The translations under genes and the position numbers were made by a program. A stretch of 63,017 bases of DNA, the filler included, from Basidiobolus ranarum (Eukaryota): assembly GCA_040143965.1 (NCBI GenBank). It is 40 parts of 40 records of this genome, joined end to end, with 100 filler letters (N's around TTAATTAATTAA, not from the genome) between each part and the next. Parts side by side here need not be neighbours in the genome. Positions count along the whole stretch, not along the records: positions 42,657 to 44,132 come from JASJQH010011944.1; 39 more parts are not named here. The stretch is one strand, 5' to 3'. Positions 14,248-48,857 of the stretch are shown piece by piece. The notes below the pieces were generated by a model. It worked only from the letters and a program-made list of their open reading frames with translations. It was not told the DNA's origin and made no database searches. Every line of letters starts with the position of its first letter. The first letter of the stretch is position 1.

Positions 14248-15728
14248 CCGAGCCACGGCCCGAAGGGACCGTCAAAGGGGCCCCGATTGGCCCCCCATGA
14301 TTGGCCTATAGATCTACAAGAAGGAAAACAACCACCATTTGGGTCCATATATGGGCTGATCCAGCCAGAACTCAACATTCTGAAAGAGTATATTGCAGAA
14401 ACTCTGGAGAAGGGATTTATTGAACATTCAAAGTCCCCAGCAGGCTCTCCAATCTTATTTGTTAAGAAAAAGGATGGATCCCTCTGTCTCTTTGTTGATT
14501 ATCACAGCCTAAATAGCATTAGATTCAAAAATTGGTACCTCTTGCCATTAATCAACTCACCCTTGGATCAGCTTGCTTCAGCCAAGGTGTTTACAAAGAT
14601 TGATCTAAGTAGTGCTTACAATCTTGTAAGAATCAAACCAGGAGACCAATGGAAAACTGCCTTTCAAATTTGTTATGGACACTTTAAATACAATGTCATG
14701 CCATTTGGACTTACCAATGCCCCTGCAGTCTTTCAACACAAGAAGAATGATATTTTCAGAGAGTATCATGACCAATCTGTGGTAATATGCATTGAAAATA
14801 TCTTGGTCTTCTCAAGCTTTCAAGAATAACATAATATTCATGTTTCCCAAATCCTAAAAAAGTTGATTATCACTGGGCTCTATGCTAAAGATGAGAAATG
14901 TGAATTTGATCAAGCTCAAGTTGAATTCTTTGGATATAACATCAGCCAATCAGGCATCTCCATGGACCCTGAGAAGGTTGAATCTGCTCTGTCTTGGGAT
15001 ATTCCCAAGAATGTGAAGGATGTCCAATCTTTCCTTGGATTTGCAAACTTTTACCAGCAGTTTCTCAAGAACTACTCCAACATATCCACTCCATTAACAA
15101 ATCTTATAAAGAAAGAACTCCCATTCCACTGGAACCCTTCTTGTCAACAAGCATTTGTAACTTTAAAGAGGGCTTTTACCTCATCACCAATCCTGGCACA
15201 TCCCAAGCCAGACAAGCCATTTATTGTTGAAGCTGATGCATCCAACTTTGCTCTAGGAGCAGTACCATTACAGTTTGATGAGGACAACTTACTGCACCCT
15301 GTTGCCTTTTACTCAAGCAAGTTCTCTGCCACAGAAATCAACTATGACAGCTATGCCAAGGAAATATTAGCAAATATTGCTGTGTTTGAATAATGGCAAC
15401 AATACTTAGATAGAGCAAATGACAAAATCACAATTTATTGTGATCACCAGAATCTTTTGTATTACAGTACAACCAAAGTCCTCAACCATCATCAACCAAG
15501 ATGGTCATTATTTCTTGGCAGTTTTGATTTTGTCATTACATTCAACCAGGTAGCTGGCAAGGAAAGCCTGCTCCTGATCATGTAGATCAGAATATCAGCC
15601 TAAAGAAGGGGATGAGGACTTTGGCCCATAAAATACTATCAGGAAAATATGGGCTGTTTGGAGGAACTTTAGAACAGTGGACTTGTGAATAGCTTTGTGA
15701 GATAATTATTTATTGTCCAGAAATAAAG
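14248..15728 (+). mobile_element. Degenerate Ty3/gypsy (Tf2/Tcn1-like) RT-RNase H
   Basis: [76 protein letters not shown]. Confidence 0.95.
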
Positions 15729-28463: not shown

Positions 28464-29941
28464 GAAAGTATAAATTTTATCAGTTTTTGGCTGTTTTTCT
28501 TGATCCTGAATTGTTTTGTTTGAAAATATTTCTTCTTCCACAAATTCCATGTCCCTTGACTTGATTAGCCTCTTATTTTCTGTCTCACATAGCCTTTACC
28601 CTTTTGTTACATCACAATATCCCACAAAACAACATTTCTGGCTTTTTGTTCTAATTTTGATCTCTTCTGGTCTGGAATCAATGCATATGTGGTACTTCCA
28701 AAAACTCTGAGATTAGCCACATCAGATTTACTTCCAAACCAAGCTTGATAAGGTGTTATAGCCAATAGAGACCTAGAAGGACATCTATTCCCAGTATGTA
28801 CTGCAGTTGCAACCAATTCAGCCCAGAACTGTTTTGGTAAATCTTGATCATGAAGCATTGATCTTGCCTTTTCCATTATTGATCTGTTTGCACATCTGCT
28901 ACTCCATTCTGCTGTGGAGAATATGGCACTGTAGTCTGCTGTTTTATCCCATGTGTTGAGCGGAACCTAGAGAAGAGTTTTGCAGTATATTCCCCTCCAT
29001 TATCAGTACAGATAATGTTAATCTTTAGACCTGTTTCAGTCTCCACCTTTGCTTTGAACTTCTTCATGGTATCAAAGGCTTCATCCTTACTGGCCAGAAA
29101 GTACACCCAAGTATACTTTGTCTTATCATCAATAAAGGTCATAAAAGACCTTTTTCCACCTAAGGATTTTGTCTGCATTGGACCACACCAATCTGAGTAT
29201 ATCAGTCCCAATTTTTGATCGATTTTGCTCTTTCCAGAGCCCACAAATGGCTCTCTGTGTTGCCTACCATATTGGTAACCTTCACATAGCTCCAGATCTG
29301 GTGGAATTACAAAATTTAGTCCCATAACCATCATGTTTTTGATTAAATTCCTCATATTTTCAGCTCCTAGATGACCCAATCTCCTATGCCAGATTTTCCA
29401 GTCTATCTCTTCAGCTGTGGCAATATTAGCTTTTTCATATAGTGGCCTAATATAATGAAGTTTATACAAGTTATTTTGCTTAGCTCCAGAAGCTACAAAA
29501 TTCCCTTTTGGATCCCTGATTGTGCAGCAATTTTGATCAAAATTAAAGCTATATCCCTCAGATGTAGCTTTACTCATTGATAATAAATTTTTTGCTATCC
29601 CAGGCATATATAGCATGTTTTTCAGTGTCAAATACATGTCCCTGGAGATGCCCCCAAGATCCACTTCAATTTGTCCTATTCCCAGAGCTTCTAGTGGCTG
29701 GTCATCTCCCATATAAATCTTCTTGTTTATGTCACTTTTGAGTGTCTTAAACCAGTTTTTTTTATTAGAAAGTGTTGAGAGGCTCCAGAATCAGTATACC
29801 ACAACCTACAGTCTTGTTCAGAGGTCACTCATAGGGCAGAAATGAATAAAACTTCCTCTTTGGTTGAAACCTGATTTGCTTGTTCTGACTTCTCATTTTT
29901 GTTGTAATTTCTTGATTTGCAATCTTTTATCTGGTGTCCTG
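28464..29941 (-). mobile_element. Degenerate Ty1/copia zinc knuckle, protease and integrase (same family as 17409-18888)
   Basis: GHQIKDC, WYTDSGAS, KNLLSMSK, WHRRLGH, DNGGEY, PYSPQQNGVA. Confidence 0.95.
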
Positions 29942-31619: not shown

Positions 31620-32005
31620 GGTATCTTGACTGTGGTCGTGGTGCTTGGATCAGTGACAGCCAAGGTAATTCATGGTGTGATCCTTACAAGAGCTGGCAAA
31701 TTGTTTACAACTATGATCTCACTGCCAACATGACCAAGGAAGAAGGTAAACTTGTCCTTGGTGGTGAAGTCGGACTTTGGGCTGAACAGATTGACGGTAT
31801 CAACATTGATAGTGTATTGTGGCCCCGTGGTTCAGCTGCTGCTGAAGTGTTGTGGTCTGACATCAAACTTGCTGATGGTACTATTCGCAAGACTGGCGAT
31901 GTCTTCCCTCGTATCAATGAGCAAAGAGCTCGCTTAGTTGATCGCGGTATTGGTGCTGTACCTTTACAACCATTGTGGTGTGCTCGTAACCCTCGTAATT
32001 GTTAA
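31620..32005 (+). CDS. GH20 beta-N-acetylhexosaminidase, C-terminal part (copy 1)
   Basis: YLDCGRG..WCDPYKSWQIVYNYD..VLGGEVGLWAEQID..LWPRGSAAAEVLW..PLQPLWC. Confidence 0.95.
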
Positions 32006-32566
32006 GTTTGCTGTACATTATAGTTACCAATAGCAATATTTGAATAAATTATATTTAATCGTAACTTCAGCAATGACTTCTTTAACGAGATTATCTTCAG
32101 TTAAATTATAAAAAGAAATTCTATCACTACACTGTGATTGGAATTGGGGATAGAGTGGGGTGGATGTACTTTGTTAGATAGCCATTGAAATTTGAATATA
32201 ATGGGTAGTATTCGTGCTCGACGTTTTCGCCCAAAGTCGGAATTTGATGTAACTTATGTTGATCGGAATAACTATTCTGTGATGTCAGGGTAGTTTGTAT
32301 CCTTAAGCGGTAAGTCTGCTGATAGACGTGTCACATTTTCATATTAGTTCGATATTCTCATGAAAACTCAATTTATACATTTTAGGATTCGAAATGCAAC
32401 TCAGACGAGTTTTCGGTTACAGATGTAACAGAAAGTAAATCGATTGAATTGGATACTGAGTTACTCATCAAGAACTCCGAATTTTTCCACGCAATAATAT
32501 ATATAGAGCAAGTGATTCTCATCATTTCAGCAGTAGAGTTTAAATTTATTAGTTAATCTTTAATCA

Positions 32567-33097
32567 ATGGTTGCCATCAAACTCCTTACCACTATCTCAC
32601 TTTTGGCCGCCAGTTCCGTAGCTTGGGTGTGGCCCTTGCCTGCAAAGATGGATGTTGGCCACAACATCATCCGTTTGAGCAGAAGTGAACTCGACATTTC
32701 TATCAAAACCCCAGCTGGTGCTGATATCCTTGAGAGAGCCGTCCATCGCTACAAGAAGTTGATCTTCACCAAAGGTGAGTTCAGTTCCCTCCTTAACCCA
32801 GTTGAGAAGACTGTGTTCCCCATTCCTACTACTTCTGTCCCCGTTCATCAGCTCGCACCCAAGGGCAAGTACCCTACACTGACTGGACTCAGCATTCAGG
32901 TCAGTGGCCACAACACCAAACTCAATCTCGACACCGATGAGTCGTACACTATCGATGTTCCTGCACGTGGTGGCAAGGCTACCATCAAGGCCAAGAGTGT
33001 GTACGGAGCTCTTCGTGGTCTTGAATCATTCTCCCAATTGGTCAAGTGGACTGCAGAGGCCAACCAGTTCCGTATTCCATTCGCCCCAGTCTCAATC
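32567..33097 (+). CDS. GH20 beta-N-acetylhexosaminidase, secreted, N-terminal part (copy 2)
   Basis: Signal peptide, VWPLP, DESYTIDV, AKSVYGALRGLESFSQLV. Confidence 0.95.
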
Positions 33098-41080: not shown

Positions 41081-41362
41081 TTCCTTGTGTTGGAGGCTAT
41101 GGAGAAAGCGGGTATGGAAGCAGGCCTTAATCCAGACACAGCTTCATCACTCGCGATTCAAACATGTCTAGGTGCAGCTAAAATGGCAGCAGCAAGTGAG
41201 GATTCCGTGGCCGAACTTCGTCGTAAGGTTACCTCACCCAATGGTACAACTGATGCTGCTATCAAGACGATGATTAAGGGAGATGTTCCCAAGTGGGTTG
41301 GCAATGGTGTACTTGCTGCTGATAAAAAGTCCAAAGAGCTTGCTAAAGAACTTGGAAACTAA
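41081..41362 (+). CDS. PRO3: Pyrroline-5-carboxylate reductase, C-terminal part (copy 1)
   Basis: LAIQTCLGAAKM..ELRRKVTSPNGTTDAAI..A..KSKEL. Confidence 0.93.
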   Translation, partial: FLVLEAMEKAGMEAGLNPDTASSLAIQTCLGAAKMAAASEDSVAELRRKVTSPNGTTDAAIKTMIKGDVPKWVGNGVLAADKKSKELAKELGN

Positions 41363-42055
41363 CTACAAATTTGCCATGTACTATACAATTTGATGTAATA
41401 ACATTTACTGTACATTATCAGATATGCAACGATTACTATAAACCAACACATGCTTATTCAATTCTATAAATCCAATAATTAAATGAAGTTTCACTTCAAC
41501 AACATAATATTCCCCATCCCAGTTATCCCAATGCGGCAAGTAAACAAAATTAGTGTAGTCTATCGAATAAATGAAATCAATTCTAAAAGTAGAAATTCCA
41601 TGGGGAGAATGCGGAAAATATAAGCACTGAATGAATTCTGTTTTGGAATTTTACTTGTTTTCTTCTTTCCTAATGAGCCAGTAAGATAATATTAACCAGA
41701 AGGTGTACCACCGATTTCCGATTCTCGATGGTTACTAGATCCAATGGATTGCTCTGGATAGATCAGGTTGGGATGATATTCCATGTGGAGATCATTCAAC
41801 CGTTTCATCGGTGATATCATTTTAGAAGGAACCCAAAGTAAGTGCAAAATGAAGGCCTATACATGTTCTCGTTCGGATCAATCCCCTATCGTACATATTA
41901 GGAAATTAATTGATATAAGCTCCAACTGATATATTACTTTATCAGTGTCGAGATTAACAAGATATAAAAGGGTGGTCGTAGTTGGACAAAAAAATCATTT
42001 CCAACTCGTACTATTTCGTAAACCAACTCTCTTATTTCTTTTTTTCCTTTCAATA

Positions 42056-42457
42056 ATGACTTCCAGAATCTGTCAACGTATTTCCTTTATCGGTGGTGGT
42101 AATATGGCTGAGGCTATTATCGGTGGACTTATTGCCAATAAGTATACCCCTCAGTGTGTTACCGTATTCGATCCAAGTGTAGAAAGACAAACTGAACTTC
42201 GTCAAAAATATGGTGTCACTATTGCTGCCGATGGAAACTCTGCTATCTATGGAGATGAGGAGAACGGTGATCACAGTGCTGATATCGTTGTTCTTGCTGT
42301 GAAGCCACAAGTCTTAAAACAAGTCGCTTTTGGAATTTCAAAGGCCGTTCGTACAGTGCAGCCATTAGTAGTGAGTATCGCAGCTGGAATCCGAACCCAA
42401 TCTATGGAACGCTGGTTGTTGAGTGGTAGCGAGGATGGCCATCAATCAGCCAACTAA
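42056..42457 (+). pseudogene. PRO3: Pyrroline-5-carboxylate reductase, N-terminal part (copy 2), apparently truncated
   Basis: ISFIGGGNMAEAI, VVLAVKPQ, VVSIAAGI. The stop comes before the expected RxMPNTP motif. Confidence 0.8.
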
Positions 42458-42656
42458 AATAGCTTTCTTTAAAATCAAGTAATGAAAATAGCTAAAGCTT
42501 GAGGTTGTAGAGACGCAAACTTATCAAACTTATCTGTTGCGAAATTCATAACCTAGNNNNNNNNNNNNNNNNNNNNNNNNNNNNNNNNNNNNNNNNNNNN
42601 TTAATTAATTAANNNNNNNNNNNNNNNNNNNNNNNNNNNNNNNNNNNNNNNNNNNN

Positions 42657-42931
42657 GCGTTACCCCACCACTGAGTGTGTTGGCAGGTGAGTTGGTAGTA
42701 GCGAGCATCGGCCCAGTCAGTGCACTGGCCATTGTCAAAACGAAATTGGAGAGAACACGAGTCAAAGCTGGTGATATCGCCGAGTATGCTCTTCTCAGCC
42801 AGTATCTCGGTGTGGTCGGATAGCGGAGTGACTGAGGTAGCACTTGGAGCAGGAAGAGCTTGAACCGCCAAACTTAAGAAAGCAGTGGCGGTAAGGCAAA
42901 TGTAAGAAATACCAAACGAGATTTTGACCAT
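42657..42931 (-). CDS. Secreted CHAP-domain (Cys/His amidohydrolase-peptidase) protein, N-terminal part (copy 2)
   Basis: Signal peptide MVKISFGISYICLTATAFLSLAVQA. GQCTDWADARYYQLT..WWGNA is the catalytic Cys motif. Confidence 0.85.
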
Positions 42932-43937
42932 TTTAATTTTGTTTTGTGGTGTAGTTAATTGTGAGTTTAATGGTGATATGAGTTCAGTCTTTATATCTTA
43001 ACAATCACTTCATCTAGCAAATGTCTATCCAATGATTTACGGATTCCCATCAAAGTGAATCCTCTTTAACTAAGTTTTCAACCCAGATATTTTCAGTTCC
43101 CGATCATCATTGCCATATGTGGGAATATTATTAAATATGGTAAGGCCAGTCTAAATATGGATTTTAATCGATGCTAAGTTACTGAAGATTAGAATAAATA
43201 TACCATATATGGCTCATGTTTCCCAAGTGTGACAGGATAACAACAATTTTCAAAAGGCTAGATCAGTTCAGATTAGATCTACTCCATACTGAAGTTGCAG
43301 AGAACTCCATAGTTCATTGAAATGCGAGCCTTTTTAATATACGATGGGATAAATGAGAAATGTCACTGGTTTACTCTTGAATCTAATATAAACTACATGA
43401 TTGTTGTTATTAAAAAGATGAGTAACAAGAAAGCTGATACGGTAGAATACTCTAGAAATTTGAAGATATCTTCATTGATTATGAAATTTTGAATGAAGTA
43501 TGAATAGTTTGTGAAAAAAGGTGTACCGTTACTGTAAATAAACTAGATTATGGGTTCAATTGATTCTGACTATAAATTTTAATTTCTTCTACGGAGTGTT
43601 ATAAAAACAGGAGGAAACCAGCATTTGGTATATTATTCAGAATACCGAGAATACATGTAAACATTTACCCACAATATCTATTTGTGGCTGTACAAAGCAA
43701 TGTTACTTAATACAGTTCTAGAGAAGTTGGAGAAATAGTCTTGTTAACCTTTCTATTAATGCCAGACTAGGGTTTCGCAAATAAGCATCCAATGTGGCAA
43801 ATAATTAATTAACGGTATATTTATTTTGTAAATAATACATTCTAATTGTTCTATAGTAAGAATACAAAGAAGGAATAAGTAATGCAAAATAGCTAGTGAC
43901 CTGCTTTTTTGTGGGTATCTAGAGTCAGGAGTAGTAT

Positions 43938-44132
43938 CTACTCATACCAGATGAATGATACTCCTTCACCCGTGTTGAATGTGACGTAAGTGGTGATATA
44001 AGGGCCTCCTTCTCCATCGATCTTGTAGTTCCAGTTACTCGTGTATACACTTCCATCATCATTGATGCTTTCAACTACGGCAACATGGCCATATGAGTCA
44101 CATCCCTGATATCCTGGCTGGATAGCAATGAT
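43938..44132 (-). CDS. CHAP-domain protein, C-terminal part (copy 1; absent from the ORF track)
   Basis: IIAIQPGYQGCDSYGHVAVVESINDDGSVYTSNWNYKIDGEGGPYITTYVTFNTGEGVSFIWYE*. YGHVAVVE is the catalytic His motif. Confidence 0.88.
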   Translation of the reverse strand: MIAIQPGYQGCDSYGHVAVVESINDDGSVYTSNWNYKIDGEGGPYITTYVTFNTGEGVSFIWYE

Positions 44133-45807: not shown

Positions 45808-47282
45808 CTCCATTTTGCTGTGGAGTATAAGGTACAGTAGTTTGTTGCTTAATTCCATCTTTAGAGCAAAAACTAGCAAAGTCTTTATAGCAGTATTCTC
45901 CAGCATTATCCCTCCTTAGTACCCTTATTTTGTGTGCTGATTCTTTCTCTACCATTGCTTTGTAGTGTTTGAATGTAGCTAAGGCTTCAGATTTTGATTT
46001 GAGAAAGAAAACCCAAGTATATCTTGTTTTGTCATTAATAAAGGTCATTAAATACCTTTTCCCACCCAGTGAGACATTTTTCATGGGCCCACATAGGTCA
46101 GAAAGAATCAGGGAAAAATTCAGGGTGGATTTGATCTCTCCAGAGCTTGAAAATAGCTTTCTGTGATGTTTTCCATATATGCAACCTTCACACAGATCCA
46201 ATTTAGTGGTATTTCTAATTTCCAAGCTTGAAACAAGATGATCTTGGATCATTTGGGTCAGTTTTTGTTCCCCAATATAGCTTAATCATCTATGCCATGT
46301 TTGATAATGTATTTCACCAGTTTTGGTGAAGCTTACATGCTCAGAATGCAATTTATTGATACTTAGCTTGTATAAGTTTTGAGTTTTGATCTCAGTGGCT
46401 AATTTGGTAGTATTCTGATCTGTGATAGTGCATCCAGCCTTACTGAGCACAAAATTTAATCTTTGAGTTATTGCTTGGCCTACTGAGAGTAGATTCTGGG
46501 CTATATTTGGTACATACAGTACATCATCTAATTTTGCAGATGGTGTAGCTGAATTTTGGTCTAAAACAAGTACAACTGTGCCCTTACCAACTGCATCTAG
46601 TGCATAGTCATCACCTAGATAGACTTTCCTTGTTTGAATTGGTTTTAAGCTGGAAAACCAACCTTTCCTGTTTGATATATGCTGGGAAACTCCTGAATCA
46701 ATGTACCACATTTTTAGCTTTTTGGCAAAAATCCTTTTTCAGCAATCATTGATTAAATGGCTTGGTGTCTTGCAATACTCGCAGATGATTAATTTCCTAA
46801 TAGGGGCACCATTATTGAAGCCTGTTAGATGTTTTACAGCTCCAAATAGTGCCTGTTTTGCATTATTTTGCTGAGAATTAGATCTCCTTAATTCTTCATT
46901 CAAAAGCCTAGCACCAACATATTCCTTTGTTAATGGCTCTGATCTTGATTCTAGTACAATTATGAGGTTCCCAAACTTGTGTGGGAGGCTCCCAAGTAGT
47001 GTCATGACTAAGTCATCTTCATTTAGAGGTACTCCAATGGATGAGAGCGTATCTGCCCTAGTTTTTATCCAATTTATATGCTTAAGCATAGCATCATCAG
47101 GATTCATCTGAATTGAGAATAATTTTCACCAAAGATATGTCCTATTAGCCAGACTTTTAGTCTCATATAGTCCCTCCAGTGTTTCCCAAGCATTTTGGAT
47201 GTTTTTAGCTGATTGAATGTGCCTCAATTGAGAATCTCTGAGATGTAGACAAAGTGTAGAGAGTGCTTTCCTCTGCTTCTTG
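45808..47282 (-). mobile_element. Ty1/copia gag, protease and integrase (third family)
   Basis: LLGSLP, CEYCKTPSHLINDC, WYIDSGVSQH, CEGCIYGK, DLCGPM, DNAGEY, PYTPQQNG. Confidence 0.95.
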
Positions 47283-47382: not shown

Positions 47383-48857
47383 AAAATTCCAGCTGTATCT
47401 GAGCCCTATTCAACCAAAATTTCAGTCCCAATTACATCAAAGGATGATTCAGGACCCAGAAGATCATCCAGAAGGAGAAATAAGCCAGGAAACTGGTGGA
47501 ACACTTCCAATGATGATGTATATGCTTATGCAGCATTCTGTGACAAGCCACAGACTCTAGATCAAGCTTTGGAGTGTCCAGAATCAAAATTATGCAAAAA
47601 AGCAATGTCAGAAGAGTTATCTTCACTTCATGACAATAAAACACGGGTTTTAAGTCCTCTTCCATCAGGGAGAAAGCCAATAGGTTGCAAATGGGTCTAC
47701 AAAGTCAAAAACTGAGCTGATGGAACCATAGAAAGGTACAAAGCAAGATTAGTTGCAAAAGGCTATTCCCAGACTCCAGGAGTTGATTTTAATGAAACTT
47801 TTGCTCCAGTAGCTAAGTTTAGCTCCATTAGATCAATCCTGGCACTCTCAGCCATCCATAACCTTGATCTACATCAAATGGATGTAAAAACAGCCTTTCT
47901 GAATGGAAATCTAGAAGAAGAGATCTATATGGAGCAACCGGATGGATTTATTGACCCAAAACATCCTGATATGGTCTGTAAACTGCAAAAATTGCTCTAT
48001 GGACTCAAGCAAGCACCCAGGGCATGGTACAACAAGATAGATACCTATTTGGAATCTCTGGAATTCCAAAAATGCACAGCAGATCACAGTATTTACATCA
48101 AAACAACCGGAAATAGGATCCTTATCTTGGCACTATATGTGGATGACTTAATCATAGCCACAAATGATCTAGAAGCACTTAATCAGACAAAAAGCAGCTT
48201 ATCAAACCAATTTCAGATGACTGATATGGGTGAATTAAGTTATTTTCTTGGAATCCAAATCAAGAGAGATAAACCCAATCAGAAAATTATGCTGAATCAG
48301 TCTAGATACATCCTAGACATCCTAAAACGCTTCAACATGGAGAATAGCAAGCCTGTATCAACACCAATGGATCCCAATGTGAAATTAATCAAAATTTCAT
48401 CCGATTTGGCCCAAAATAGCTCAAATCAAAGCCAGGAGTTCCCTTATTAATCCATGGTTGGTAGTTTAGAGTGTACAATGGTTGGAACACATCCAGACAT
48501 TGCTGTAGCAGTGGGAACTGTCAGCCAATACCTCAAAAACCCAGGATCTGAGCACAAAACTGCAGTAAAACAAATATCCAGGTATTTGAGGGGAACTGTA
48601 GATCTAGTTCTGGAATACTCTGCCACTCCTGATGCACAAAACTTTGAAGTCTACAGTGATGCAGACTGGGGAAGAAACCTTGATGATAGAAGATCAACAA
48701 CTGGATACACTTTTCTCTAAGGTAATGGAGTCATAACTTGGAATAGTAAGAAGCAACCAACCGTAGCTCTTTCCACTACAGAAGCAGAGTATATGGCTGC
48801 CTCTGCTACTACACAAGAAGCTATGTGGTTAAAGAAGTTATTTACAGACTTAGGACA
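47383..48857 (+). mobile_element. Ty1/copia RT-RNase H
   Basis: [54 protein letters not shown]. Confidence 0.96.

What the first reader, a model, noticed from the sequence alone, without database searches (positions are those of the whole stretch)
42657..44132. Tandem secreted bacterial-type CHAP amidase genes in a fungal genome: candidate horizontally acquired antibacterial system
Seen: the minus strand carries the end of one gene (YGHVAVVES...SNWN...GVSFIWYE*, 44132-43938, missed by the ORF track). About 1 kb downstream a second gene starts with a signal peptide and GQCTDWADARYYQLT..WWGNA. Neither fragment has an intron. The spacer is AT-rich with a TATAAA-like box upstream of the ATG, like the other host contigs. 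Known: GQCT and GHVAVV are the catalytic Cys and His motifs of CHAP domains, which are mostly bacterial and phage peptidoglycan hydrolases. Inference: a domesticated, duplicated, secreted wall-lytic enzyme used against bacteria or to feed on them.
Basis: partly seen in the sequence, partly recalled or inferred. Interest (0 to 1): 0.78.

Follow-up and report, generated by a model that had tools for sequence, protein, structure and literature searches.

The report
Basidiobolus secreted CHAP amidase gene pair
A short contig from a Basidiobolus-type fungus holds the end of one gene and the start of the next for a secreted, bacterial-type cell-wall-cutting enzyme, from a large gene family that this fungal genus seems to have acquired once from soil bacteria; it is real but belongs to a family already present in public genomes.

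Summary
Window 42657-44132 is one whole 1476-bp contig; the window is 40 short contigs joined by artificial linkers. Its minus strand carries the last 64 codons of a CHAP gene (catalytic His), a 1006-bp AT-rich spacer, then the first 91 codons of another CHAP gene (signal-peptide-like N-terminus, catalytic Cys). Together they miss only about 23 residues of a roughly 179-aa protein.

The closest relatives, up to 90.6% identical, are 41 'Peptidase C51 domain' protein clusters of Basidiobolus meristosporus and B. ranarum, many with consecutive locus tags. A neighbouring contig's P5C reductase is 79-82% identical to Basidiobolus, so the host is a Basidiobolus-lineage fungus, not a contaminant.

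Basidiobolus proteins and both fragments form one clade (100/100 support). All 9 organism-named outside relatives are Ktedonobacteria/Chloroflexi. That fits one old bacterial transfer followed by expansion.

Two other host-gene contigs show the same tail-spacer-head layout. This looks like how the assembly breaks tandem near-identical copies, so copy number is unresolved.

Peptidoglycan cleavage and an antibacterial role are inferred, not shown. Similar cases are in print (Saprolegnia CHAP family, Aspergillus CwhA). No paper found pairs Basidiobolus with 'CHAP domain'. Verdict: new member of a known kind, moderate interest.

The parts
43941..44132 (-). 3' end of CHAP gene copy 1: last 64 codons, cut at the contig end. 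Catalytic His codon at 44087-44085, conserved Glu at 44072-44070, Asn33 and Asn35 at 44036-44028, subclade-specific Cys at 44102-44100.
   Evidence: Translation. Pfam CHAP 28.3 bits, E 2.5e-6, profile positions 52-80 of 81. 90.6% identity to P0007 residues 116-179 and 89.1% to P0004 residues 118-181. Codons verified.
43938..43940 (-). TAG stop codon of copy 1
   Evidence: the homologs end at the same residue
43820..43825 (-). AATAAA hexamer about 113 nt after the stop; a possible polyadenylation signal (inference)
   Evidence: a consensus match only
42932..43937 (-). 1006-bp AT-rich intergenic spacer (31.2% GC) between copy 1 and copy 2
   Evidence: composition. No CHAP remnant by tblastn. No Rfam match at E<=1, no tRNA, only one weak 29-nt direct repeat, no ORF of 60 aa or more.
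42990..42995 (-). TATAAA box 64 nt upstream of the ATG of copy 2 (possible core promoter; inference)
42857..42931 (-). Start codon and predicted signal peptide of copy 2 (residues 1-25, MVK + hydrophobic stretch + AVQA, then LP)
   Evidence: Hydropathy maximum 2.03. A25-L26-P27 are invariant in 9 full-length paralogs. The cleavage site is inferred from the -3/-1 rule, which is recalled; no signal-peptide predictor was available.
42758..42856 (-). Variable Ser/Thr/Pro-rich linker (residues 26-58) between the signal peptide and the catalytic domain
   Evidence: Poorly conserved columns in A1. The equivalent residues of P0004 are modelled with pLDDT 53-59.
42657..42757 (-). First third of the CHAP domain of copy 2 (residues 59-91), cut at the contig end. 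Catalytic Cys codon at 42724-42722; subclade-specific Cys59 at 42757-42755 and Cys83 at 42685-42683.
   Evidence: 94% identity to P0004 over 34 tree columns. The Cys column is conserved in 37 of 37 Basidiobolus and 75 of 77 bacterial rows.

Best explanation
The contig is the junction between two head-to-tail neighbouring copies of a Basidiobolus-specific family of small secreted CHAP (peptidase C51) enzymes. It holds the tail of the upstream copy, its 1-kb intergenic spacer with eukaryote-style signals, and the head of the downstream copy.

Shown: the family membership, the fungal (Basidiobolus-lineage) host, the presence of the catalytic Cys, His and Asn positions, the hydrophobic N-terminus, the same-strand tail-to-head order, and the single well-supported Basidiobolus clade whose named outside relatives are all Ktedonobacteria/Chloroflexi.

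Inferred: one ancient transfer of a Ktedonobacteria-type CHAP domain into the Basidiobolus lineage. The long bacterial N-terminal region was replaced by a eukaryotic signal peptide and short linker. The gene then expanded to about 20 clusters per genome, largely by tandem duplication. The contig ends where neighbouring copies become identical in the conserved core, so the assembler collapsed that core.

Inferred mechanism: the protein enters the ER through its signal peptide and is cleaved after Ala25. It is released as a single-domain papain-like amidase/endopeptidase of roughly 150 residues. Its Cys-His-Asn/Asp centre cuts the peptide part of bacterial peptidoglycan, either the MurNAc-L-Ala amide bond or a stem/cross-bridge peptide bond. 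This would let the fungus kill, hold back or digest bacteria in gut, dung and litter.

The confidence given covers the identity and origin of the locus. For the antibacterial peptidoglycan-hydrolase role alone I would say about 0.6.
For: Structure of the window: 40 contigs, and the finding is one of them.

CHAP identity: Pfam hit above the gathering score for the tail. Profile hits to 5 solved CHAP chains (5t1q E 9.8e-12, 2k3a E 1.8e-11). The AF2 model of the closest B. meristosporus paralog has pLDDT of 94 or more from residue 61, and its top Foldseek hits are all CHAP domains (5t1q, rmsd 2.3-2.8 A over 115 columns).

Catalytic columns: Cys in 37/37 Basidiobolus and 75/77 bacterial rows; His in 36/37 and 76/77; Asn152 in all 114 rows. 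The window carries all of them.

Family: head and tail align to columns 1-93 and 118-181 of a ~179-aa family, with 90.6% and 89.1% identity for the tail. Of the best 120 of 237 profile hits, 41 are Basidiobolus clusters (21 B. meristosporus, 20 B. ranarum), on contigs up to 268 kb. All 9 organism-named others are Ktedonobacteria/Chloroflexi.

Trees: 41 Basidiobolus rows + both fragments + 1 unnamed row form one clade, SH-aLRT 100 in 149 rows and 100/100 in 88 rows. Both fragments fall inside a 17-row Basidiobolus subclade at 98/92.

Host: a neighbouring contig's P5CR is 79-82% identical to Basidiobolus and the next hits are 48%. Coding GC of 0.44-0.50 lies within the host genes' 0.40-0.51.

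The B. ranarum partial proteins P0016 and P0017 end at contig ends inside the core. Their cores are identical to each other and to P0010, with different N-termini.

Secretion: 31 of 41 Basidiobolus proteins and the window head pass a crude N-terminal hydropathy test, against 22 of 79 bacterial or unnamed rows.
Against: No activity, expression or secretion data exist for any family member.

The window head alone has no Pfam or NCBIfam hit.

About 23 core residues of each copy are unseen, so neither gene is shown to be intact.

The contig carries no other host gene, so linkage to the fungal genome is by likeness only.

The same tail-spacer-head layout occurs for P5CR and GH20. P5CR gave only one close hit in each reference Basidiobolus. 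An assembly artefact common to such contigs is therefore not excluded.

The tree is unrooted with a midpoint root. The branches that nest the fungal clade among bacterial rows have only 86-89 SH-aLRT.

The position of the third catalytic residue holds Asn or Asp where staphylococcal CHAPs have Glu. This is shared with the bacterial relatives.

The CHAP family also includes non-peptidoglycan amidases such as Gsp amidase, seen as weaker fold hits.

Both DNA-collection scans returned no related locus.
Confidence: 0.78

Rival explanations
1. Assembly artefact: there is only one CHAP gene here. The tail-spacer-head order would come from a rotated graph cycle, a chimeric join or a mis-join in a very fragmented short-read assembly.
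For: 3 of the 6 contigs with recognisable host genes show the same layout (CHAP; P5CR residues 207-299 then 1-131; GH20 catalytic tail then N-terminal domain). P5CR gave only one close hit in each reference Basidiobolus. Head and tail of the CHAP contig nearly complete one gene, missing about 23 residues.
Against: No contig has end-to-start overlap of 12 nt or more or any internal self-similarity, so none is a closed cycle. The missing parts differ widely: about 23, 75 and about 265 residues or profile positions. This fits breaks at the borders of identical cores rather than one mechanism of rotation. Tandem CHAP neighbours are indicated in two independent assemblies. B. ranarum contigs also break inside identical cores. 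Short contigs are expected to be enriched for such junctions.
Confidence: 0.12
2. Bacterial contaminant contig binned with the fungus.
For: CHAP is mainly a bacterial and phage domain. The contig holds no other host gene, and neither fragment has an intron.
Against: The nearest relatives at 89-91% identity are Basidiobolus proteins on contigs of 24-185 kb, whereas bacterial relatives reach only about 57%. A 1006-bp gene-free spacer at 31% GC with TATAAA and AATAAA is not bacterial in style. The N-terminus matches the fungal paralogs, not the long bacterial N-terminal regions: a median of 71 against 171 residues before the catalytic Cys.
Confidence: 0.02
3. A real fungal CHAP family, but not antibacterial. 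The enzymes would act on the fungus's own wall or secreted proteins, on small amide compounds (as Gsp amidase does), or would only salvage muropeptides as nutrients.
For: The CHAP family includes glutathionylspermidine amidase and trypanothione synthetase-amidase, which appear as weaker fold matches (E 0.013-0.057). There is no wall-binding domain, such as SH3b or LysM, that would target bacteria: only PF05257 is recorded for all listed members. The family-specific change of Tyr to Asp next to the catalytic Cys (37/37 Basidiobolus against Tyr in 68/77 bacterial rows) could mean an altered substrate.
Against: The best sequence and fold matches are peptidoglycan hydrolases (5t1q, 2k3a, phage phi812, PcsB, LysGH15, LysK). 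The proteins carry signal-peptide-like N-termini, whereas Gsp-type amidases are cytoplasmic (that last point is recalled). Fungal walls hold no known CHAP substrate (recalled).
Confidence: 0.15
4. One or both copies are decaying pseudogenes in a rapidly turning-over array.
For: Large tandem families commonly hold dead copies. The core of both copies is unseen. The N-x-T site found in the linker of most paralogs is D-H-T in the window head.
Against: Both visible pieces are open, gap-free against the homologs, and keep every conserved catalytic and structural residue. Coding GC stands well above the spacer.
Confidence: 0.08

Closest known systems
Basidiobolus 'Peptidase C51 domain-containing' hypothetical proteins (e.g. 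B. ranarum K7432_004553 = P0007; B. meristosporus K493DRAFT_299142 = P0004)
   Same: Same family and same subclade. 90.6% and 89.1% identity over the tail and 94% over the visible domain part of the head. Same signal peptide + linker + single CHAP layout, and the same extra Cys positions.
   Different: Neither is identical. The signal/linker region is only 49-61% identical, and P5CR is 79-82% identical, so the window comes from another Basidiobolus-lineage genome. These database entries are uncharacterised.
Ktedonobacteria CHAP-domain proteins (Thermogemmatispora, Dictyobacter vulcani, Tengunoibacter tsumagoiensis, Ktedonobacteraceae MAGs)
   Same: Nearest non-fungal relatives: 50-60% identity over the catalytic domain, with the same Cys, His, Glu138, Asn/Asp150 and Asn152 columns.
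   Different: Bacterial proteins are longer, with a median of 171 residues before the catalytic Cys against 71. They have Tyr where Basidiobolus has Asp74, and Gly/Ala where the window's subclade has three extra Cys.
Solved staphylococcal and phage CHAP domains (S. aureus SAOUHSC_02979 5T1Q, S. saprophyticus 2K3A, phi812 9EUM, LysK CHAPK 4CSH, LysGH15 4OLK, PcsB 4CGK)
   Same: Same fold and same Cys/His motifs. The model of P0004 superposes at 2.3-2.8 A over 115 columns with about 30% identity.
   Different: Those act as autolysins or phage lysins and usually carry wall-binding or other modules. They have Glu where this family has Asn/Asp. Bond specificity cannot be carried over.
Saprolegnia parasitica secreted CHAP family (7 genes, proposed bacterial transfer; PMC3681718, passages read)
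   Same: A eukaryotic, secreted, repeatedly duplicated CHAP family proposed to come from bacteria.
   Different: An oomycete, not a fungus. No sequence comparison with it was made here, so it is presumably an independent acquisition. It too is uncharacterised biochemically in the passages read.
Aspergillus fumigatus CwhA (secreted SH3b + NlpC/P60 endopeptidase that cleaves peptidoglycan; PMC12332128, abstract start and passages read)
   Same: A secreted fungal Cys-His peptidase of bacterial type, shown to be antibacterial; the functional precedent for the proposed role.
   Different: A different Pfam family (PF00877 plus the SH3b domain PF08239), not CHAP, and a single gene rather than a roughly 20-member family.
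Other eukaryotic antibacterial genes of bacterial origin: GH25 lysozyme transfers (PMC4241558, listing and abstract start only) and tick Dae amidases (recalled, not looked up)
   Same: The same logic: a bacterial wall hydrolase taken over by a eukaryote.
   Different: Different enzyme families and hosts.

Membership tests
CHAP domain (Pfam PF05257; MEROPS C51) | Significant match to the family profile | tested here: met
   The tail scores 28.3 bits against a gathering score of 26, E 2.5e-6. The head alone gives no hit, but all 10 of its homologs carry PF05257. A profile of 9 full-length paralogs hits 5 solved CHAP chains.
CHAP domain (Pfam PF05257; MEROPS C51) | Catalytic Cys at the start of the first helix | tested here: met
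   Cys70 of the head (42724-42722) lies in the column conserved in 37/37 Basidiobolus and 75/77 bacterial rows. It aligns with the Cys of GQCT in 5t1q and 2k3a. In the model, helix 72-84 starts at that Cys.
CHAP domain (Pfam PF05257; MEROPS C51) | Catalytic His in the GHVA-type strand | tested here: met
   His16 of the tail (44087-44085); the column is conserved in 36/37 and 76/77 rows and aligns with GHVAFVE / GHVAYVE of 5t1q and 2k3a.
CHAP domain (Pfam PF05257; MEROPS C51) | Third polar residue (Glu/Asp/Asn) about 17 residues after the His, followed by Asn | tested here: met
   SNWNY in the tail aligns with SESN / SEMNY of the solved chains. The first position is Asn or Asp in 37/37 Basidiobolus and 72/77 bacterial rows, and the second Asn is in all 114 rows. 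The geometry was not checked because no coordinates were available to me.
CHAP domain (Pfam PF05257; MEROPS C51) | Papain-like alpha+beta fold | tested here: met
   Tested on the closest full-length paralog, P0004, not on the window's cut genes. pLDDT is 94 or more for residues 61-181, and 20 Foldseek hits at E<=0.001 have CHAP domains at the top.
CHAP domain (Pfam PF05257; MEROPS C51) | A complete, uninterrupted domain in the window's own genes | tested here: inconclusive
   About 23 core residues of each copy lie beyond the contig ends, and no other contig of the window holds them.
CHAP domain (Pfam PF05257; MEROPS C51) | Amidase or endopeptidase activity on peptidoglycan | not testable with these tools
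   Needs enzyme assays.
Gene of bacterial origin fixed in a fungal genome | Physically part of the eukaryotic genome | tested here: inconclusive
   The window contig holds no other gene. Indirect support: paralogs in B. meristosporus lie on contigs of 83-268 kb, composition is host-like, and the spacer is eukaryote-style. No whole genome or reads were available.
Gene of bacterial origin fixed in a fungal genome | The eukaryotic sequences form one clade nested among bacterial ones, with no wider eukaryotic distribution | tested here: inconclusive
   One clade at 100/100 support. Nesting depends on a midpoint root and on branches at 86-89 SH-aLRT.
Tandem duplicated gene pair | Two members adjacent on the same strand | tested here: met
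   The tail (stop at 43938) and the head (ATG at 42931) lie on the minus strand of one contig, 1006 bp apart. A mis-assembly is not excluded.
Secreted protein (classical signal peptide) | N-terminal basic residue, hydrophobic core and a small-residue cleavage site | tested here: inconclusive
   MVK + a 20-residue hydrophobic stretch + AVQA|LP. Hydropathy maximum 2.03, with 31 of 41 paralogs at 1.8 or more. ALP is invariant in 9 paralogs. This is only a crude heuristic; no dedicated predictor and no experiment.

The most novel reading that the evidence does not exclude
Basidiobolus turned a single Ktedonobacteria-type CHAP domain into an arsenal of about 20 secreted peptidoglycan hydrolases per genome. 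The arsenal would sit in tandem arrays whose catalytic cores are kept identical by gene conversion or very recent duplication, while signal/linker regions and surface residues diversify. One subclade, which includes the window's genes, gained three extra cysteines for stability outside the cell. This would be a fungal counterpart of an innate antibacterial effector repertoire, tuned to the dense bacterial communities of amphibian and reptile guts and dung. It has not been described in print, as far as my searches reach.
Probability: 0.3. Interest if true: 0.6.

Novelty: new member of a known kind. Interest (0 to 1): 0.38.

Why it matters
If the enzymes are active, Basidiobolus would hold one of the largest known eukaryotic families of a bacterial-type cell-wall hydrolase. 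That bears on how a gut- and dung-dwelling fungus competes with or feeds on bacteria. It also adds a non-metabolite class to the bacterial gene transfers already reported for this genus, and it offers small, single-domain, probably disulfide-stabilised lysins that could be tested as antibacterial enzymes. For the scan itself there is a practical lesson: in this assembly, short contigs with the tail of a gene at one end and the head of a like gene at the other are a recurring signature (3 of 6 host-gene contigs). They should be read as junctions of collapsed duplicates, or as artefacts, before being called special.

Tried and rejected
Whole-genome search and laying the genome: no genome is held for this window.

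DNA context of relatives: the search for related loci with the paralog profile found 0 confirmed loci in genome contigs (40 pattern matches) and 0 in metagenome contigs (61 pattern matches). Spacing and introns of tandem relatives could therefore not be read at the DNA level.

The protein atlas returned only generic bacterial CHAP clusters (scores 0.93, Actinomycetota/Bacillota most common), which confirms the domain but says nothing on the donor.

Earlier findings were not open. Supplementary tables of Tabima et al. 2020, which may list these genes among the 806 transfer candidates, were closed.

Closed cycle or circular contig: rejected, since there is no end overlap of 12 nt or more within or between the 40 contigs and no self-similarity.

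Hidden features in the spacer: no Rfam match at E<=1 and no tRNA. There is one 29-nt direct repeat at 76% identity (42954-42982 / 43974-44002), taken as chance.

NCBIfam gave only sub-threshold matches for the tail and none for the head.

No complex prediction was run, as no binding claim is made.
Full report
WHAT THE WINDOW IS. The window is not one stretch of a chromosome. It is 40 contigs of 1484 down to 1473 bp, sorted by length and joined by N44-TTAATTAATTAA-N44 linkers. The finding, 42657-44132, is exactly one of them: 1476 bp at 36.5% GC. Everything about linkage and copy number therefore has to be inferred.

THE OBSERVATION. On the minus strand, 44132-43941 is an open frame of 64 codons ending in TAG at 43940-43938. 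After 1006 bp of 31.2% GC spacer, ATG at 42931 opens a 91-codon frame that runs off the contig end. The tail passes Pfam's own threshold for CHAP (28.3 bits against 26, E 2.5e-6, profile positions 52-80 of 81). The head has no Pfam or NCBIfam hit by itself, but a homology search with it returns 10 proteins, all from Basidiobolus and all carrying PF05257 (7 B. meristosporus, 3 B. ranarum; E 1.3e-23 to 5.4e-12). TATAAA lies 64 nt before the ATG and AATAAA about 113 nt after the stop. The spacer holds no CHAP remnant, no Rfam match, no tRNA and no meaningful repeat.

HOW THE TWO PIECES RELATE. Aligned with ten full-length Basidiobolus proteins of about 165-219 aa, the head fills columns 1-93 and the tail columns 118-181. 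By tblastn the head matches residues 1-92 and the tail residues 116-179 of the 179-aa P0007. Together they lack only about 23 residues, and those are the most conserved stretch of the family. The tail is 90.6% identical to B. ranarum K7432_004553 (P0007) and 89.1% to B. meristosporus K493DRAFT_299142 (P0004). The head's signal and linker part is only 49-61% identical to any paralog, while its visible domain part is 94% identical to P0004. Because the tail lies upstream of the head on the same strand, a linear genome needs at least two copies, head-to-tail.

THE HOST. The neighbouring contig carries a P5C reductase whose N-terminal part is 79% identical to B. ranarum and 82% to B. meristosporus. 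The next hits, from chytrids and bacteria, drop to about 48%. The coding GC of the CHAP pieces (0.443 and 0.502) lies inside the range of six other host coding pieces of the window (0.399-0.507). Eleven of the 40 contigs carry Ty1-copia or Ty3-type retroelement domains. The assembly is therefore a Basidiobolus-lineage fungus distinct from the two sequenced species named above. A bacterial contaminant is very unlikely.

THE FAMILY AND ITS ORIGIN. A profile of nine full-length paralogs found 237 proteins at E<=1e-3 among 8000 scored candidates, of which the best 120 were listed. Forty-one are Basidiobolus clusters: 21 from B. meristosporus CBS 931.73 and 20 from B. ranarum, 133-296 aa long, on contigs up to 268 kb. 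Of the other 79, nine carry an organism name and all nine are Ktedonobacteria/Chloroflexi: Thermogemmatispora argillosa and T. sp., Dictyobacter vulcani, Tengunoibacter tsumagoiensis, four Ktedonobacteraceae and one 'Chloroflexi bacterium'. These share 50-60% identity with P0004 over the catalytic domain only.

The tail searched against 1.84 billion representatives gave 137 hits at E<=1e-3, 29 at E<=1e-10 and none at E<=1e-30.

The first tree held 149 rows: 41 Basidiobolus, the two fragments as separate rows, 71 of the 79 other hits (the 8 shorter than 150 aa were dropped), and 35 of the new hits (every third of those 150-450 aa long). It used 121 columns. All Basidiobolus rows, both fragments and one unnamed protein (P0123) fall in one clade, with SH-aLRT 100 and a stem of 0.89. 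A careful search on 88 of those rows (61 left out) gave 100/100 for the same 44-row set. It placed both fragments in a 17-row Basidiobolus subclade at 98/92. The bootstrap had not quite settled.

The tree is unrooted. With a midpoint root the fungal clade sits among bacterial rows next to Dictyobacter, but those branches have only 86-89 SH-aLRT. This pattern fits one transfer from a Ktedonobacteria-type donor followed by expansion inside the genus. The donor and the direction remain inference.

Tabima et al. 2020 (passages and section 17 read) list 806 transfer candidates in B. meristosporus CBS 931.73, 61% of them without introns and with host-like composition. One NRPS-like gene there has a 'GNS bacteria' best hit. 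Their main text has no occurrence of 'CHAP', 'peptidoglycan' or 'Chloroflexi'.

TANDEM HABIT AND WHY THE CONTIG ENDS WHERE IT DOES. In one search many paralogs share a contig length and have consecutive locus tags. In B. ranarum these are K7432_005993/005994/005995 (19,377 bp), 012408/012409 (7,726 bp), 005503/005504 (20,895 bp) and 016307/016308 (3,253 bp). In B. meristosporus they are K493DRAFT_302510/302513/302515 (122,520 bp).

Two B. ranarum partial proteins, P0016 and P0017, stop at contig ends at the same residue inside the core. From the first domain Cys onward they are identical to each other and to P0010, while their signal and linker regions differ. This is the same situation as in the window. 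Neighbouring copies share a stretch of identity in the core that a short-read assembler collapses, which leaves the unique tail-spacer-head junction as a short contig.

A CAUTION. The same layout recurs in the window. Contig 41081-42556 holds P5CR residues 207-299, then 696 bp, then residues 1-131. Contig 31620-33097 holds the end of a GH20 catalytic domain (profile 266-347 of 348), then the GH20 N-terminal domain (profile 1-130 of 130). That makes 3 of the 6 contigs with recognisable host genes.

None of the 40 contigs has end overlaps of 12 nt or more, and the three contigs have no self-similarity, so they are not closed cycles. The missing parts also differ widely in size. I read them all as junctions of collapsed tandem duplicates, which would be enriched among short contigs. 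However, P5CR gave only one close hit in each reference species, so a systematic assembly artefact is not excluded. I give that about 0.12.

WHAT THE PROTEIN IS LIKE. In a 114-row alignment (37 Basidiobolus, 77 bacterial or unnamed), the catalytic Cys is kept in 37/37 and 75/77 rows and the His in 36/37 and 76/77. Glu138 is kept in 36/37 and 75/77, position 150 is Asn or Asp in 37/37 and 72/77, and Asn152 is kept in all rows. The window has all of them.

A profile search of solved structures aligns GQCT and GHVAVVE with the same motifs of S. aureus SAOUHSC_02979 (5t1q, E 9.8e-12) and the S. saprophyticus CHAP protein (2k3a, E 1.8e-11). It aligns SNWNY with their SESN / SEMNY, so Asn/Asp replaces their Glu.

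AlphaFold2 on P0004 with that alignment gives pLDDT of 94 or more from residue 61 to the end and 53-59 before it (mean 83.6, pTM 0.68). Foldseek's top matches are CHAP domains: 5t1q at rmsd 2.3-2.8 A over 115 columns and about 30% identity, then phi812, 2k3a, phage Andhra, PcsB, LysGH15 and LysK. Gsp amidase and trypanothione synthetase appear as weaker matches.

Three features are specific to the fungal clade. First, the N-terminal region is short: a median of 71 residues before the Cys against 171 in the bacterial rows. Second, Asp follows the Cys-Thr in 37/37 Basidiobolus rows where 68/77 bacterial rows have Tyr. Third, three extra Cys (61, 85, 128 in P0004 numbering) occur in 13-14 of 37 Basidiobolus rows, where the bacterial rows have Gly or Ala. 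The window's head and tail carry all three extra Cys.

By a crude hydropathy test, 31 of 41 Basidiobolus proteins and the window head have a hydrophobic N-terminus, against 22 of 79 other rows. Ala-Leu-Pro at the predicted cleavage site is invariant in nine paralogs.

HOW IT MOST LIKELY WORKS. Shown: a CHAP-family domain with its catalytic residues, preceded by a signal-peptide-like segment and a disordered linker, encoded by at least two same-strand neighbours in a fungal genome. Inferred: secretion through the ER and cleavage after Ala25. Also inferred: a single-domain papain-like amidase/endopeptidase that attacks the peptide moiety of bacterial peptidoglycan, and a role in competition with or feeding on bacteria in gut, dung and litter. 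Which bond is cut cannot be told from sequence. The lack of a wall-binding module and the Tyr-to-Asp change leave room for a different substrate (rival at 0.15).

COMPARISON WITH WHAT IS KNOWN, AND NOVELTY. The genes are members of a family already deposited as hypothetical 'Peptidase C51 domain-containing' proteins in two Basidiobolus genomes. A secreted, repeatedly duplicated CHAP family of proposed bacterial origin was reported in the oomycete Saprolegnia parasitica (7 genes; passages read). A secreted fungal peptidoglycan endopeptidase of the related NlpC/P60 type, CwhA of Aspergillus fumigatus, has been shown to be antibacterial (abstract start and passages read). GH25 lysozyme transfers to eukaryotes are also in print (listing only). 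Tick Dae amidases are recalled, not looked up.

Full-text searches found 0 papers holding both 'Basidiobolus' and 'CHAP domain' and 0 holding 'Basidiobolus' and 'Ktedonobacter'. Broader searches and a paper on family expansions in early-diverging fungi (passages) gave nothing on this family. The library lacks most subscription journals.

The size of the expansion, the Ktedonobacteria-type relatives and the cysteine-bearing subclade therefore appear undescribed. The kind of thing is known. Verdict: a real feature, a new member of a known kind, of moderate interest.

Noticed in passing
whole window (1-63017): The window is 40 unrelated contigs of 1484-1473 bp, sorted by length and joined by N44-TTAATTAATTAA-N44 linkers. 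Neighbourhood across a linker means nothing.
   Followed up: yes
window 41081-42556 (+): The contig carries the tail of a P5C reductase (residues 207-299 of 299, at 41081-41359), then 696 bp, then the head (residues 1-131, at 42056-42448). This is the same tail-spacer-head layout as the CHAP contig, although only one close P5CR hit was found in each reference Basidiobolus.
   Followed up: partly
window 31620-33097 (+): The contig carries the end of a GH20 hexosaminidase catalytic domain (31622-32002, profile 266-347 of 348), then about 560 bp, then a GH20 N-terminal domain (32564-33097, profile 1-130 of 130). This is a third tail-to-head contig.
   Followed up: partly
11 contigs, e.g. 14248-15728, 28464-29941, 45808-47282, 47383-48857: Fragments of Ty1-copia and Ty3-type retroelements (RVT_1, RVT_2, rve, gag_pre-integrs, Pol_BBD, RNase H) lie on 11 of the 40 contigs. 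23 contigs gave no Pfam hit for pieces of 75 aa or more.
   Followed up: no
proteins P0010, P0016, P0017 (B. ranarum K7432_016307, 016308, 017710): Two partial proteins end at contig ends at the same core residue. Their catalytic cores are identical to each other and to a third paralog, but their signal/linker regions differ. This suggests very recent duplication or gene conversion of the core.
   Followed up: partly
alignment A3, P0004 positions 61, 85, 128; window codons 42757-42755, 42685-42683, 44102-44100: Three extra cysteines occur in only 13-14 of 37 Basidiobolus rows (the subclade holding the window's genes), where bacterial relatives have Gly or Ala. They may form disulfides, leaving an odd one out; the pairing was not determined.
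   Followed up: partly
B. meristosporus K493DRAFT_349802 (P0012): This CHAP paralog's number is two away from gene model 349800. Tabima et al. list 349800 as an NRPS with a 'high GC Gram+' best hit among transfer candidates (Table 3). Both may lie close together on the 160,813-bp contig, which would be a possible cluster of transferred genes. Numbers need not reflect position.
   Followed up: no
window 42954-42982 and 43974-44002: A 29-nt direct repeat at 76% identity, 1020 bp apart. One copy lies just upstream of the ATG of copy 2 and the other inside the coding tail of copy 1. Probably chance.
   Followed up: no
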